From: Haliotis rubra
Lineage: Eukaryota
Assembly (NCBI RefSeq): GCF_003918875.1
Contig: NW_025765825.1
Location: forward strand, 124,001 to 188,000
Direction of reading: 5' to 3'
Length of the DNA: 64,000 nucleotides
Shown here: in pieces, positions 1 to 52,600 of the stretch
Position numbering within the stretch: position 1 is the first letter of the stretch
Layout of the letters: every line of letters begins with the position of its first letter
Position numbers: made by a program

Positions 1-486
1 CAATATTTGTAAGGCGTGGCATGAAAATTGTATATTTTTCATTAATTGTTAACGTGTGTTTTTTGTTTCGTTCAAATTCTACACTCATATGTTTTCCATA
101 TAATTAACTTGTCCAAGTGTGAAGTTTCCCTTTGTGTTCAGTATAACAACGGGTATTCATATATCAAGCAGAGACAGATTGTCATACGTCACGATTCAGT
201 GGGAGAGCACTAATAACCCTCAGAATAGGCAAAAGATATCCATTCTAGAAATACACCTTCTTGACAGAAAATGTTCTTACATTAGACGTATGTGTTATGA
301 TTGATTTTATAAATGAGAACTCATCCAGCCCTTCCCAGTAATCATCATCTCATCTATCACACGTCAGGTACAGACACAATACAATAACAATCCAGTTCAA
401 TGTTTACACCTCCAGGCATATTGCCTTGAAGAGTTACGTTTCTATTAAAATAGACGCTAGGATTGATTTCTGGAGGAAATAAAGAA

Positions 487-552
<66 letters not shown>

Positions 553-46600: not shown

Positions 46601-49600
46601 GGGTGGGGTGTGGTGCCTGGGTGTTGGGGGTTGTACGTGTGAAATTGAAATTTCTCTACACACGCTTGTTGATTACCTGGCTGTTCTACCAGCAAGTGTC
46701 CCAACTCGTAAGAAATAGAGTTAAGCCGCAACAAAATAATGATCGTTTGTTAAACAACTCATCAGAGTTGGTCTGTCGATTTCATGTGACTGTGCAAAAG
46801 TTGGTTTTGTTGTAATTATTAGATTTTGTGTAAGTGAGCAATTCATAGGTCTCAAATGAAATCAAACGGACTTTAACACTGGGCTTTGTTTGAAATGTTT
46901 TGAATATACAATGTCCAATTATCATTAGCAGTTTGTTACCATTGTGACAAGATATAAAGGAGCATCAAATTAAATTGAAAATGTATCAACTGACCGCTGG
47001 CGTACTCAGGTTCCAGCCACCTTGCAAATTGAGCACCTGCAGCTCCCCAGCCCGAATTCTCCACGTTATTACACGTGCCATCAGTTGTCCTATAGGTGTC
47101 ACTTGAACTGCAGGTCGCTTGCCTGGATCAAAAAGCATCAAGTAACAGGCAACTGTCTTTATACACTCAACACACCATCGTAAAGTTATCTGAAAGTCCA
47201 TGACTTGGAATAGCAGGTAGTTAATTCTCAAAGTGTTATATATTAACGATTTATTGAACACCTCCTCAACACCTTCTGAAATGTTAAAGTTTAAGTAAAC
47301 ACAACATAACTTGTTTACAAATACACCACTTGCTGAGTAAACCCTTAAGCGATTAAAACACTCTCTCGGTGTTTGAGGTGCTGAGCAATATCGGGACCCA
47401 GTCTGCTTTCCTCTGTATGCAACGAATGCTTTTTCAGTGATTCAGTTAGTGTTTTGGGGTTGTTGTTTGTTTTTGTTTTATGCTGTACAGTATTAAAGCT
47501 GAATGATCAACTCGGTGATCACCATCATGTGCATCGATCTACGCAATCAATCTACGATCTACGATGTCAAATTCAGCTTTAAAACCCGCTTTGAATAGTA
47601 TCCTAGTACTTTCACGGTGTGTGGTGACATTTCAAGTGTAGTCAGGTTCAGCATATTAATCCCTGAAAGGCAGTCATTGTATGGAACAGGGCGGTGCGCA
47701 GCAGACGGTATATTGCGCACAAACATTATGTCAGTCATGAAACGGTAACTACAGAATATTGACTGTTGTTTCAATTATTTGCAAGAATATTATGGAGTGT
47801 GTGGTTTCAACACTTTCACCTGCCTATGAATATTATTATTTCTCTCTCGGATAGACATGCCCACCTCTTCTATTAACAGAAAAAGCAAACAGATATTTAA
47901 TTGCGTCAAAAAAGCATGCAATAGATAAACCCGGCATTATCAGCCGATGAAAACCTTTGTCTAGTACCGCCGCATCGTTTGCCTGTAGGCCAAGCTACAA
48001 CGAATGTAGCCAGTCCAAGTTCACAAATAGGCTTGCTTTAGAACCCCGGGACATCATCACTGTCATTGGAAATTTTCTATCATTTCTACCAATACTACTT
48101 GTTTTCTCTCTTGCAACTTGACTGGGTGTATCCAAGAAACTTGACATTCGCAACAACATTCAAAATCCTTTACTTTCCCTTAAAGTTGGGAAATTGATGT
48201 AAGTAAACATAATAGCACAATTCATTTTCACTGGGACACACATATTCTTCTATATACCTTTTTCTGTTGACAGGCTCCGTGTGTCTCTTGCTCTTTGATG
48301 ACCGCGACATTAATGCACATGGGGTTCTGCTTCCTCCGCACTCTGTCACGAAAATAAGGACGATTAAAATGTTAACCAAACGGGTTATCTAATAAAGTTT
48401 AAAAAAATCATGAGTTTGTTATCATCATCATTATTATTATTGTCATTATTTCTATATACATGTTACTAATTTAAGGTGAGGTGAAACGGGGTTAACGCCG
48501 TGCTTACGAATATTTCGCTCATATGACGATGTGCATGCGTTTGTATTTGTGGCTGCTTGTACTAGCCAAGACTGAAACTGTTTTATAGTGCAAGCTCACT
48601 AAGCATGAATACTCCACCCAGAGACATTATACTGACTCCGAGCCGACCAGTCCTTGGTGTACCCATTAATGCCGAGCGCAAGGCAGGGACCAACAAGTAC
48701 CATATTTTAACGTTTTGAGGTACGATGCGGCCGGGGATCAAACCCGCGACCTTCCGTTCTCCGGGCGGACTCTCTAACCACTACACCACGGAGGCGGTTT
48801 ACTAACTTAAGAATAGGTGCACCCTTCATACAGATATGACTACATGTTAATTCTCCCAAAGTTTTATGTCTTTTCATCCAAAGTGTATTTTGCCCAAAAA
48901 TACAGCCATATGGCGGCGGCCTGTAAATAATCGAGTCTGGACCAGACAAGCCAGTGATCAACAGCATGAGCATCGATCTGCGCAATTGGGAACCGATGAC
49001 GTGACTGTGTCAACCAAGCCAGCGAGCCTGACCGCCCGATCCCGTTATTCGCCTCTTACGTCTGGGATGAGATAACGCTTAAATAGGTCGGTCATTCCTC
49101 AGTTGACGGATTGCCTGGCATAGCAAAATACCAAATGATGTGTAAACATTCTTGTAATTTCTTGTATAAAGAATCAAACAAGTACAAACAAAACAAGTAC
49201 AATGGCAACCATATCCTTTGTGTAGCAATAATTACCGTGTATGTTTTTACTGAAGGCTCATTCTAACCCGGTGAGTGAGTGAGTTAAGATTTTAAGACAC
49301 ATCGGCAATATCTCAGCCATATCGTGACTATAAACAAGTTATGAATTCACCATAAATACATATAAATTATAAAAACCTGCCGACGAAGGACAGTAAAATC
49401 AACTAGAATACCACAGTATCCAGGAATAAAACTAGCAACTCTCTCTCAAATTGGATTTTAAATTAGGACACTTCAGTATAAAAACGGGCTATAGATCGCC
49501 AACAACTGCATTCTAACCCGGACCACAGGTATGAAACAACGTGAATCAAAATACATACCTGCATGGATAACGCAGAGAACGATCAGTAGAGCTTGGACAA

Positions 49601-52600
49601 GGAGTGACTGCATGATGCTACCTTCAGGATGGCTAGAGCCAGTGTGATGGAATACTCAAGGCTTGGCTATATATACATAATTTTCACAATGGGTATGAAT
49701 CTCATACAATCTGTTTCCATTTATTGACATTATTAATTGTATTGCTGACACCTGGAACTTGAAACAGATCCCAGCAGGGGGTGGAAGTTAAGCGCGTTGA
49801 TGATAAAACCCTGAATGGTAAATTGAACATTTAGATCTCGCATCGTCACATTTTGCAATGATGTATGTGATACGGTCCACACAATAATGCCCATCGCTTG
49901 CAGTTAGAGATACAGATTTCACCCTTATCAATATTGTTAATCTTATTATCAATTTTATAGCCTGTCCATATACCAGAATGTTAAAGCATAATTATCACTT
50001 TGCTGATTTAGGCAAGATAGGACTCAGATTCGGGATATCAAGTTTTTAAAAATCTAAGCTAACTAAGATGTTGTATTTACTACGTTTTATTATGGAACGC
50101 ACTTTTGATGGTGTCAATGCACCGATTCGGGTACATGAGTTACAATATCCAGGTAAGAGATCGCGCTAGTTTTCAACTTGCTCCATGCATGACTGACTGA
50201 GTTTAGTTTTACGCCGCTTTTAGCAATATTCCAGCAATACCACGGCGGGGGACACCAGAAAGCTCCCAATGCAATCTCATCATACTTGTTTTACTTACCT
50301 ATTTTGTTTTGTGAATACACAATGCAATTTAGATATGGTCAAATGCAACATATATTATATATTTTGGATTGATGAAGCCGCGGTGGTTGAGCGGGTTAGG
50401 AGTCTGTCTTTGTGTGCTGGCGATAAGGTGCCTGACTAGTACTCTGAGGGAGTGAGTTCGAATTCGGGTTGGGACTCAACCCAACAAAAGTACTATAATC
50501 TGTACTTTACTAAGAAAGTGTAATCCCAAATATAACATATGTTGTATTCTGTTTTGGTCAGTAATGATTACTATTTTTTTCAACGTGAGGTATTAGTATG
50601 AAATCAATTCATCTCAAAATCCTCTCATGGAATAGTTGGACGGGTATAAGGTCTTGTGCGTAAAATCTCTCATTGATGTAAATAATGCATCCCCCCGAAG
50701 GTTCGGGAGACATATTTCTGTTTTCATGGCAACAATTTGGACTAAGTCTTTTTGAAGTTTAAAGTTCGTTTCGGGAGCAAAATTCTGAAATTATCTGACC
50801 CACCTCTCCCAATTTGCCATACTGCCTCTCCATGACAAGCAGATGTGCCTCTTGGGGGTTTGAACTTTTCTTTCAATTTAATTTGTTCTGTTTCAATTAT
50901 TTTTTTCTGTTGAGGTCTCAACGTTGAATTGGGGGAAGGGGGAGACATCTGTTTTTACCAGTAAAAAGCTTTCTAGTCGAGTTCTGTGACAGTCTAAATA
51001 AAACGTTATAAGAGCGGTTCACGTTTTGTCGATTCACAATTTAGTTTTACGCCGCATTTAGCAATATTCCAGCTAAATGGTGACGGTCTGCAAATAATCG
51101 AGTCTACACAATTGGGATACGATGACACGTGTCAACCAAGTCAGCGAGCCTGACCACCCGATCGCGTTAGTTGCTTCTTTCGACAAACATGGGTTACTGA
51201 AGATCAATTCTAACTCGGATCTTCGCGGGTCTTTTGTGCTTGACTGGAATTGATATATTTATAGACAAGAAGTCGACCTTTTAAAATTTCTCTATGGACA
51301 CGAAGTCGACCAGCGGTAAACTTTGATGTTGAAGGTGTTGCTAGAGTCACACTAATCCGCTAGTAGGTGTTGTTTTAAGATTTTCGATAACGTCAGCATC
51401 GCGTAACGCGTGAACATAGTTCACTCACGTACTTCACTCAAAATGTCATTAATGTCATCACATGAGAGTGCATTTTACAATGATGAACATATCTCATTCA
51501 ATTTAGATATATGTAAGGAAAGAACTCGCGGTAGAATTAAGTTTCGAAATGGCAAATGCACAGTTAAATCGGTCATTTCTTCCTACATCTCGTGGTGGAA
51601 GATACCTGTGTTTTGTTGGATATATTTACCGAGTGAAATAAGAGGAAGCGAGATTCGAAGTGCACAGGAAAGAACTATAACTCCACTGCGTTAACTGTCC
51701 ATAGATCCAAGTGGAACCACCACGATTCCGACAGCCAAGCACCAACAACCGTCTGGAAGGGTGGCACTCTCGTCTGAAGAGATTGGTGGGAAAGGCCCAC
51801 CACAATATTTTTTAAGTAATCAAATTTCATGCTTAGGAGCACACTGAAGTCCGCCTGTTACAGTGGACAAAAACGTCCATTGAAGAACAAGAAATTCAGG
51901 GACTTGGAACGTCTTAGGAGTGGACAAGCCAGCACCAAACAGTTTGCAGATGCTGCATCTCACCTACTTTATGTTTGATGATTTTGTATACGAAATATAA
52001 TGGACGAAATATAGTACTATTCTCCTGTGCTCTCAACCGCATAATCCGGATTACCGCCTTGTGAAAACACTGGATTATCTCTTTGTCTTTTTAATCCCCT
52101 GTTAATTGGCATAAGGTCAAATGGACAGGACGTGGACCTTTCTTTCTTAACTGAACCGTGACATTTCACCCAAGGGTCGACGTCCTGGGCAGACACCAAC
52201 TGATACACACTCAATTTAGGAGAACAGCACTCGTATATCATTTGTGAAGTGTGATGCTGAGAATACATTGTAATTAATATATTTGTTATACTGAATTAAA
52301 GAAAAACACCGCTTGAAGTTTTGTTTGCTAAGATGCTGTAATATTTCCTCTTTCTCTGAGGCTGAATGTAACACGTGAGTGAGTGATCGTGAGTGAGTGA
52401 GTGAGAGAATTAACGCTTCCTTGAACAATACATGCATTTCTGTTCATGGCGTGCCATCTGCATTGTTTGAGAGGCATTTTAGAAGTTAAAGGAAACTATG
52501 GATAGTCAACTTCTTTATTGCAATGACTGCGACATTTCGGCGTAGGTAATAACGCCGTTTGGGTACAGTGTGTGAAGCCCATTTCTGGTGTCCACCGCCG

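What the first reader, a model, noticed from the sequence alone, without database searches (positions are those of the whole stretch)
1..51238. Two interlocked multi-kilobase inverted duplications build the peroxidase cluster
Seen: 9-11527 is mirrored at 18379-30324, and the spacer between those arms (11523-17659) is itself an inverted copy of 39914-51238. Gene order is A(-) D(+) B(+) E(+) C(-), a pseudoknot-like arrangement with a head-to-head pair on the left and a tail-to-tail group on the right. Inference: a template-switching rearrangement or duplication plus inversion; the arms could support recurrent inversion and arm-to-arm conversion.
Basis: partly seen in the sequence, partly recalled or inferred. 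Interest (0 to 1): 0.65.

Follow-up and report, generated by a model that had tools for sequence, protein, structure and literature searches.

The report
Nested inverted duplications in peroxidase cluster
Five copies of an animal haem peroxidase gene, only one of them intact, sit in two interleaved pairs of inverted repeats that look like ordinary successive segmental duplications rather than a new kind of structure.

Summary
Window 9-11527 (A) is an inverted copy of 18379-30325 (B). Window 11523-17659 (D) is an inverted, much shortened copy of 39914-51238 (C).

All arms carry one 13-exon animal haem peroxidase gene (Pfam PF03098). The order A(-) D(+) B(+) E(+) C(-) is correct.
- C is the only intact copy.
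- A and B each have all 13 exons and one frameshifted exon.
- D keeps 8 of 13 exons, with stops.
- E keeps 3 of 13 exons.

The two pairs differ in age. Substitution divergence is 3.6% for A/B and uniform. It is 6.2% for D/C and patchy (p = 8e-14).

Both homologies end at one junction with a 5-bp microhomology (11523-11527). Its reverse complement lies at 18379-18383. B runs on past that point into sequence shared with E, so A is the derived copy.

Best reading: an older D/C inverted duplication, then a younger fold-back or template-switch inverted duplication of B. Its 6.85-kb spacer contains D, which produces the interlock.

A single dupINVdup-type event, inversion inside a tandem array, and mis-assembly are less likely but not excluded. 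The contig is not human. This is a known kind of structure, of modest interest.

The parts
9..11527 (-). Arm A: inverted copy of arm B. It holds 5.2 kb of upstream sequence, a 13-exon peroxidase gene (ATG 6288, stop 822) and about 0.8 kb downstream. Exon 7 (3778-3672) carries two separate 1-nt insertions and an in-frame stop.
   Evidence: for the homology. for exon mapping: 13 of 13 exons found, 12 of 13 open. for the alignment of exon 7.
11523..11527 (.). Junction J1: a 5-bp microhomology where the A/B homology ends and the D/C homology begins. Its reverse complement lies at 18379-18383, the inner end of arm B.
   Evidence: for the alignments of the junction to B and to C. for the base-by-base register; 0.6% of 200000 random inverted junctions in this window have 5 bp or more.
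11523..17659 (+). Arm D: decayed inverted copy of arm C. It keeps 8 of 13 exons: 1, 4, 6, 8, the 3' 374 nt of exon 10, 11, 12 and 13. Exon 10 has two in-frame stops. Four deletions relative to C remove exons 2-3, 5, 7, and 9 plus the 5' part of exon 10.
17660..18378 (.). Segment x: single-copy stretch between D and B. Its right part (18099-18378) continues the homology between B's upstream region and E's upstream region.
   Evidence: 18099-18510 matches 32207-32601 in the same orientation, 79.2% over 413 columns, E 4.5e-100. Nothing else in the window matches 17660-18098.
18379..30325 (+). Arm B: partner of A, holding a 13-exon peroxidase gene from 23887 to 29463. Exon 4 (25650-25825) has a 1-nt deletion that shifts the frame. 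B also has a 161-bp palindromic insert at 24345-24505 that A lacks.
   Evidence: all 12 acceptors are AG and all 12 donors are GT, and exon lengths sum to 1844..
32207..34946 (+). E: peroxidase relic of the A/B type. It has B-like upstream sequence (32207 to about 33850) and exons 7, 8 and part of 9 (34212-34840). Exon 9 has an in-frame stop.
   Evidence: (tblastx), and (3 of 13 exons found).
36635..39916 (+). Repeat block collinear with 55105-56833. It contains the ORF 38618-39070 and ends within 2 bp of the outer end of arm C. The other copy runs into the N stretch, which I did not fill.
   Evidence: for the collinear hits; no Pfam family for 38618-39070. That it is a retroelement is recalled from the look of the ORF and was not shown.
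39914..51238 (-). Arm C: the only intact gene. It has 13 open exons from ATG 49613 to the stop at 40247, with lengths summing to 1836 nt, 1.6 kb of upstream sequence and 0.33 kb downstream.
   Evidence: 8 of 10 exon peptides match PF03098, collinear over profile positions 1-530.

Best explanation
This is a real cluster of five paralogues of one secreted animal haem peroxidase gene. It was shaped by at least two successive inverted segmental duplications, not by one interlocking event.

**Step 1 (older, inferred).** A C-type unit was copied in inverted orientation to give D. D then lost five exons and part of a sixth through four deletions. Parts of D and C were later homogenised by gene conversion.

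**Step 2 (younger).** The B unit, 12 kb including 5.5 kb of upstream sequence, was copied in inverted orientation to give A.
- The join used a 5-bp inverted microhomology, 11523-11527 pairing with 18379-18383.
- A fold-back or replication template switch produces exactly this: an inverted duplication around a spacer.
- The spacer (11528-18378) contains D. The A/B pair therefore brackets D, while the D/C pair brackets B.
- The shared boundary at J1 arises because the new junction cut into D's upstream region.

**Afterwards.** A and B stayed under purifying selection for a while, then each took a frameshift. Only C remains intact.

**Shown:** the homologies, exon states, divergences, the microhomology, and the continuation of B into x.
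**Inferred:** the order of events and the fold-back or template-switch mechanism.
For: 1. **Different ages.** Substitutions are 402 of 11039 (3.6%; pieces 2.7-4.6%) for A/B and 354 of 5731 (6.2%; pieces 2.9-8.1%) for D/C, chi-square p = 8e-14. Beside J1 itself the figures are 121 of 3378 and 134 of 1655, p = 1e-11.
2. **J1 is a clean non-homologous join.** It has 5 bp of microhomology and no shared repeat. Random junctions reach 5 bp or more in 0.6% of 200000 trials.
3. **A is the derived copy.** B continues past the A/B boundary into x, and that stretch is homologous to E's upstream region (18099-18510 to 32207-32601). The uninterrupted side is therefore B, and A is the copy cut short there.
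4. **The arms have separate histories.** There are 47 indels. B alone has a palindromic 161-bp insert. A 349-bp stretch present in B, part of which also matches E, is missing from A. The frameshifts lie in different exons.
5. **Past selection on A/B.** dS is 0.035 and dN 0.013, with 14 synonymous of 32 changes against 22.5% expected, p = 0.006.
6. **No gaps at the joins.** The only N stretch is 56834-57026.
7. **Human precedent.** Fold-back inverted duplications in humans have spacers of 766-70466 bp and 2-8 bp of inverted microhomology (PMC3907307, passages read). Here the values are 6851 bp and 5 bp.
Against: - Exon synonymous counts alone do not separate the ages: 14 of 404 against 14 of 247, p = 0.23.
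- One D/C piece (13460-14624) is as similar as A/B, 34 of 1165 or 2.9%. I read it as a conversion tract, but it could mark the true age.
- The outer end of A lies 8 bases from the window edge, so its second junction is unseen.
- Step 1 has no junction evidence. On the one side that can be tested, the D/C boundary at 17659 / 39914 shows 0 bp of microhomology.
- The end of arm C coincides within 2 bp with the end of a repeat block. No model here explains that.
- No reads, no second individual and no related species could be examined.
Confidence: 0.5

Rival explanations
1. One complex event made both pairs at once. It would be an inversion with staggered breaks or a dupINVdup-type replicative rearrangement. 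The order p q' M' p' q would map to A, D, x, B, C. The 9.6-kb stretch y (30326-39913) would then be a templated insertion or a later arrival at the second junction.
For: - The order of the arms matches p q' M' p' q exactly, apart from y.
- Both homologies end at the same 5-bp junction J1.
- D-x and x-B would be the two preserved ancestral contacts, and x-B is supported by the homology to E.
- The class is well described: Ranz 2007, PMC1885836, 17 of 29 Drosophila inversions with inverted duplications at their breakpoints (passages read); and dupINVdup in Collins 2017, PMC5338099 (passages read).
Against: - Equal ages are expected, but divergence is 3.6% against 6.2% overall and 3.6% against 8.1% beside J1.
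- A/B is uniformly diverged, with no patchiness to suggest later homogenisation.
- B does not abut C. The 9.6 kb between them holds an old peroxidase relic, E.
- In Drosophila such duplications spanned at most about 1.9 kb of aligned sequence. Here they are 6-12 kb around a 0.7-kb inverted core.
Confidence: 0.2
2. The cluster was a plain head-to-tail tandem array, C D B E A on the minus strand. A single 28-kb inversion of 11.5-39.9 kb then flipped D, B and E. That turned direct repeats into interleaved inverted ones.
For: - Undoing an inversion of about 11528-39913 puts all five genes in one orientation. C then lies next to D, and B, E and A lie together, so the closest relatives become neighbours (geometry).
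- The ages of the two pairs may differ freely under this model.
- Tandem arrays are the usual state of such gene families (general knowledge).
Against: - Both inversion breakpoints would have to fall exactly on the two tandem-duplication junctions. No piece of D stayed beside C, and no piece of C moved with D.
- A/B homology would be expected to continue into a second copy of y to the left of A. The last 8 bases of the window do not match, which is weak evidence.
Confidence: 0.1
3. The arrangement is an assembly artefact. Two haplotypes, or collapsed and chimeric reads, were joined so that allelic copies appear as inverted paralogues.
For: - 3.6% substitutions plus many indels lies within the allelic range reported for some very heterozygous marine invertebrates (recalled, no call).
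- The A arm ends 8 bases from the window start, which might be a contig end.
- A and B each carry a frameshift that could be a consensus error.
Against: - No N stretch lies at any junction.
- J1 joins unrelated sequences with only 5 bp in common, which is not how overlap assembly mis-joins repeats.
- The flanks of A and B are not collinear, so the two cannot be simple alleles.
- D differs from C by 5.2 kb of deletions and two stops.
- The retained exons of C and D show no length change at all, apart from one in-frame 9-nt difference in C's exon 12. That argues against a high rate of indel errors.
Confidence: 0.1

Closest known systems
Fold-back inverted duplication with a single-copy spacer (Hermetz et al. 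2014, PMC3907307)
   Same: Two inverted copies lie around a spacer of a few kilobases: 6851 bp here, against 766-70466 bp with a median of 3428 bp in that study. A short inverted microhomology sits at the junction of spacer and inverted copy: 5 bp here, against 2-8 bp there.
   Different: - The human cases are megabase-scale, next to terminal deletions, and de novo.
- Here the copy is 12 kb, interstitial and old (3.6% diverged), and its outer junction is unseen.
- The spacer itself contains one arm of an older inverted pair.
Inversion with inverted duplications at both breakpoints (staggered breaks, Ranz et al. 2007, PMC1885836; dupINVdup, Collins et al. 2017, PMC5338099)
   Same: The interleaved order is p q' M' p' q, with non-repetitive genes as the duplicated material and decay of one copy of a pair.
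   Different: - The two pairs have unequal divergence.
- 9.6 kb lies between the third and fourth elements.
- The inverted core is only 0.7 kb, while the 'flanking' duplications are 6-12 kb.
Animal haem peroxidases of the myeloperoxidase / peroxinectin superfamily (Pfam PF03098)
   Same: - The exons of C cover profile positions 1-530 in order.
- The best solved relatives are human eosinophil peroxidase, myeloperoxidase and lactoperoxidase, and Dictyostelium peroxinectin A.
- The distal QWGQFIDHD stretch and the FRFGH stretch align to their counterparts.
   Different: - This is a distant relative. Exon 10 gives E = 1.5e-19 and 73 bits against human eosinophil peroxidase, so it is not a human gene.
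- The residue aligned to the Glu of myeloperoxidase's 'SSEMP' is Val, and the Met next to it is Phe. That these two residues bind haem covalently is recalled, not tested.

Membership tests
Animal haem peroxidase (PF03098) | Match to the family profile above Pfam's gathering score | tested here: met
   Exon by exon for copy C, 8 of 10 peptides match. Six are above 25 bits: exons 3, 4, 7, 9, 10 and 11, at 33-141.6 bits. Exons 6 and 12 are below, at 18.3 and 22.7 bits. Exons 2 and 8 have no match. Exons 1, 5 and 13 are under 20 aa and were not scanned. The large exons of A, B and C score 141-144 bits.
Animal haem peroxidase (PF03098) | Distal His / Gln / Asp motif and proximal His | tested here: met
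   QWGQFIDHD in exon 4 aligns identically to eosinophil peroxidase. FRFGHS in exon 10 aligns to FRFGHT. The roles of these residues are recalled.
Animal haem peroxidase (PF03098) | Second covalent haem link through a Glu (mammalian enzymes) | tested here: not met
   Val aligns to that Glu in A, B and C (for the alignment, for the peptides). This feature defines the mammalian subgroup, not the Pfam family.
Fold-back / template-switch inverted duplication | Inverted copies separated by a spacer, with inverted microhomology between the spacer end and the start of the duplicated segment | tested here: met
   The spacer is 11528-18378. The 5-bp sequence at 11523-11527 is the reverse complement of 18379-18383.
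Fold-back / template-switch inverted duplication | A second junction closing the outer end of the inverted copy | not testable with these tools
   It lies at or beyond window position 9, and only 8 bases are visible.
dupINVdup / staggered-break inversion | Order p q' M' p' q, with the third and fourth elements abutting | tested here: not met
   The order is met, but 9.6 kb (30326-39913) lies between B and C.
dupINVdup / staggered-break inversion | Both duplications of the same age | tested here: not met
   3.6% against 6.2% substitutions, p = 8e-14. Gene conversion could blur this.
Non-allelic homologous recombination between dispersed repeats | A hybrid repeat of the same family at the junction | tested here: not met
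   At J1 the two parental sequences share only 5 bp. The nearest dispersed repeat in D starts about 20 bp away and is absent from the B side.
Assembly artefact (haplotig or false join) | Gaps at the joins, near-identical arms, half read depth | tested here: inconclusive
   There are no N stretches at the joins, and the arms differ by 3.6-6.2% plus indels. Read depth and spanning reads cannot be tested here.

The most novel reading that the evidence does not exclude
A single replication-based event of dupINVdup type duplicated two whole genes at once around a 0.7-kb inverted core in an invertebrate peroxidase cluster. Later long-tract conversion between the 12-kb inverted arms reset A/B to a younger apparent age. 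The arms would then still be exchanging sequence and might flip the 6.85-kb spacer in some individuals.
Probability: 0.15. Interest if true: 0.4.

Novelty: new member of a known kind. Interest (0 to 1): 0.25.

Why it matters
The locus is a clean natural example of how a small gene family is reshaped.
- It shows inverted segmental duplications joined by microhomology.
- Copies are lost quickly: four of the five are disabled.
- Gene conversion is confined to exons.

For annotators the practical point is that only one of the five peroxidase loci (C, 49613-40247) should be called a gene. For assembly curators, 12-kb inverted arms at about 96% identity mark a place that should be checked with long reads. 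It opens no long-standing question.

Tried and rejected
- **RNA genes.** ARAGORN and Rfam at gathering thresholds found nothing in the window, so the SINE-like repeats are not callable tRNA genes.
- **Pfam on ORFs.** For 10 further ORFs in x, y, the C intron and the right flank, 0 of 10 matched. The ORF 38618-39070 has no Pfam family, so calling its repeat block a retroelement rests on recall.
- **RNA-mediated origin of D.** I considered a spliced or transduced copy and rejected it. The four deletions have no GT/AG or CT/AC ends and 0-2 bp of overlap, and D keeps introns.
- **MAFFT artefact.** MAFFT gave 16% divergence for D 11491-12271. A stricter pairwise alignment gave 10.2% with one badly diverged patch. 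I therefore used the blast pieces for the numbers.
- **Left edge.** I looked for a continuation of the A/B homology past the window's left edge by searching for the reverse complement of bases 1-8 in 30301-40000. It was not found.
- **Further peroxidase pieces.** None lie in 51.3-64 kb.
- **Literature on such clusters.** One search for haem peroxidase / peroxinectin clusters with tandem duplication and gene conversion listed one unrelated paper.
- **Left unchecked.**
  - The genome collection holds only bacteria and archaea.
  - As a result, no orthologous locus and no source organism could be examined.
- **Not run.** No structure prediction and no complex prediction were run.

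
Full report
**What the window is.** The window is 64 kb with G+C near 0.38 and one N stretch at 56834-57026, outside the finding. Its coding pieces belong to the animal haem peroxidase family, Pfam PF03098. The best solved relatives are human eosinophil peroxidase and myeloperoxidase. They match exon 10 only distantly, at E = 1.5e-19 and 73 bits. I therefore take the contig as non-human, most likely from an invertebrate. The source organism was not determined.

**Check of the observation.** A self-comparison confirms both mirror relations.
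- Arm A (9-11527) matches arm B (30325-18379) in inverted orientation, in pieces of 93.5-97.3% identity.
- Arm D (11523-17659) matches arm C (51238-39914) in five collinear inverted pieces of 86.1-96.9% identity.

Three corrections apply:
- D is 6.1 kb against 11.3 kb for C, and C holds about 5.2 kb that D lacks.
- D does not fill the whole A-B spacer: 17660-18378 (x) is single-copy.
- A ends 8 bases from the window edge, and those bases do not match B, so its outer end is uncertain.

**The genes.** I worked exon by exon and did not join exons into a transcript or protein, so no full-length search or fold was made. In B, tblastx against C and E and reading of the frames give 13 exons from 23887 to 29463. 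All 12 acceptors are AG and all 12 donors are GT. The phases are consistent if exon 4 is 177 nt rather than the 176 nt observed.

| Copy | Exons found | State |
|---|---|---|
| A | 13 of 13 | exon 7 has two separate 1-nt insertions and a stop |
| B | 13 of 13 | exon 4 has a 1-nt deletion |
| C | 13 of 13 | all open; 1836 nt including the stop, ATG 49613 to stop 40247 |
| D | 8 of 13 | exon 10 lacks its first 132 nt and has two in-frame stops |
| E | 3 of 13 | exon 9 has a stop; B-like upstream sequence |

- No peroxidase piece lies in 51.3-64 kb.
- The exon peptides of C match PF03098 in order over profile positions 1-530. Eight of 10 scanned peptides match, six of them above the gathering score.
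- The residue aligned to the Glu of myeloperoxidase's 'SSEMP' is Val. Its role in binding haem is recalled, not tested.

**Ages.** The table counts substitutions only, in the blast pieces.

| Pair | Substitutions | Divergence | Range of pieces |
|---|---|---|---|
| A/B | 402 of 11039 | 3.6% | 2.7-4.6% |
| D/C | 354 of 5731 | 6.2% | 2.9-8.1% |

- The overall difference has p = 8e-14.
- Right beside the shared junction, A/B has 121 of 3378 and D/C has 134 of 1655, p = 1e-11.
- In exons, A-B has dS 0.035 and dN 0.013. C-D has dS 0.059 and dN 0.028. The two gene types differ by dS of about 0.32.
- The excess of synonymous changes in A-B (14 of 32 against 22.5% expected, p = 0.006) shows purifying selection after the duplication. 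The frameshifts are therefore late, or they are consensus errors.
- Consensus errors are unlikely. The retained exons of C and D show no length change, apart from one in-frame 9-nt difference.

**Separate histories of the arms.**
- A and B differ by 47 indels.
- B alone has a 161-bp palindromic insert at 24345-24505.
- A 349-bp stretch at 21868-22216 is present in B, part of it also matches E, and it is missing from A.

**Gene conversion.**
- A/B shows none that is recent. The longest identical runs are 199 and 197 bp against about 157 expected.
- D/C is patchy. The piece 13460-14624 has 34 of 1165 substitutions against 320 of 4566 elsewhere, p = 3e-7.
- Between the two gene types, exons 6 and 9 are nearly identical: 3 differences in 280 nt for A against C, compared with 204 in 1555 nt in the other exons, p = 3e-12.
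- At exon 9, E differs by 12% from both B and C, while at exons 7-8 it differs by 4% from B. Exon 9 of the A/B lineage was therefore probably overwritten from the C type.

**The junctions.**
- At J1 the A/B homology runs to 11527 and the D/C homology starts at 11523. The five shared bases are the only overlap, and no dispersed repeat is common to the two parental sequences there.
- The reverse complement of these five bases lies at 18379-18383, the inner end of B.
- Random inverted junctions in this window show 5 bp or more in 0.6% of 200000 trials.
- B continues past 18379 into x, and 18099-18510 is homologous to E's upstream region at 32207-32601 (79.2%, E 4.5e-100). B therefore sits in the older, uninterrupted context, and A is the derived copy.
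- The D/C boundary at 17659 / 39914 is sharp, with no microhomology on the testable side.
- Just outside arm C lies a repeat block (36635-39916) collinear with 55105-56833. The second copy runs into the N stretch, which I did not fill.

**Interpretation.** The interlock needs no special mechanism. If an older inverted pair D/C exists, and B, which lies between D and C, is later copied in inverted orientation to a point just upstream of D, the order A D B C follows.
- The new junction cuts D's upstream region. That is why both homologies end at J1.
- This fits the unequal ages, the uniform A/B divergence and the patchy D/C divergence.
- It also fits the form of a fold-back or template-switch inverted duplication. 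In humans these have spacers of 766-70466 bp and 2-8 bp of inverted microhomology (PMC3907307, passages read).
- I give this reading 0.5.

**Rivals.**
- *One event (0.2).* A single dupINVdup or staggered-break event (PMC1885836 and PMC5338099, passages read) gives the same order of arms and the shared junction. It predicts equal ages and B abutting C, and neither is seen.
- *Inversion in a tandem array (0.1).* Inversion of 11.5-39.9 kb inside a head-to-tail array C D B E A restores a tidy array. It requires both breakpoints to fall exactly on duplication junctions.
- *Mis-assembly (0.1).* It is argued against by the absence of gaps, the 5-bp join, the non-collinear flanks and the decay of D. 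It cannot be excluded without reads.

**What stayed unchecked.**
- Read support and read depth were not available.
- Sequence to the left of the window was not available.
- No full-length protein search or fold was made. I left that joined step out.
- Supplementary files of the three papers were not seen. Their junction tables could refine the comparison of spacer and microhomology sizes.

**Verdict.** The structure is a new member of a known kind, of modest interest (0.25).

Noticed in passing
window 3953-4071, 15065-15183, 26215-26333, 44100-44218 (exon 6); 2824-2984, 27306-27466, 42101-42261 (exon 9): Exons 6 and 9 are nearly identical between the A/B type and the C/D type: 0.8-2.5% mismatches against 7-31% in the other exons. 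The relic E keeps a diverged exon 9. This looks like exon-sized gene conversion between paralogues.
   Followed up: partly
window 24328-24523: A palindromic element of about 196 bp with terminal inverted repeats sits in intron 1 of B. Its central 161 bp (24345-24505) is absent from A. It looks like a miniature inverted-repeat transposon inserted after the A/B duplication.
   Followed up: partly
window 10564-10915, 18954-19301, 36922-37253, 48474-48806, 60331-60661: A repeat family of about 330 bp has five copies, and part of it reads like a tRNA. The copy near 60.6 kb carries a perfect 63-bp tandem duplication at 60603-60726. ARAGORN and Rfam call nothing here.
   Followed up: partly
window 7189-7413, 11572-11668, 13221-13428, 22772-22996, 42394-42624, 48917-49060, 51097-51214, 54862-55020: A second short dispersed repeat of about 230 bp has at least eight copies. 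One copy replaces the 3.3 kb that D lacks between exons 1 and 4.
   Followed up: no
window 55105-56833 and 56834-57026: A repeat block collinear with 36635-39916 runs straight into the only N stretch of the window. I left the N stretch as it is.
   Followed up: no
window 53614-54150 (-): An ORF with a reverse-transcriptase domain (RVT_1, E 3e-16) marks a retroelement in the right flank. Neighbouring ORFs at 52643-53443 have no Pfam match.
   Followed up: no
window 36234-36647 (+): A borderline Pfam match to DUF6897 (24.2 bits against a cut-off of 23.9) occurs in an ORF between E and C.
   Followed up: no
window 10220-10522 (+) and 19344-19646 (-): A 100-codon ORF is kept open in both arms, 4 kb upstream of the A and B genes. 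It overlaps the longest identical A/B run, 199 bp. It was not scanned against any family and may be a chance ORF.
   Followed up: no
window 9673-9836, 12233-12399, 20036-20196, 50374-50543: A non-coding block of about 165 bp is conserved upstream of all four full-length copies, at different distances from the ATG. It has stops in all frames. It could be a regulatory element or an old repeat.
   Followed up: no
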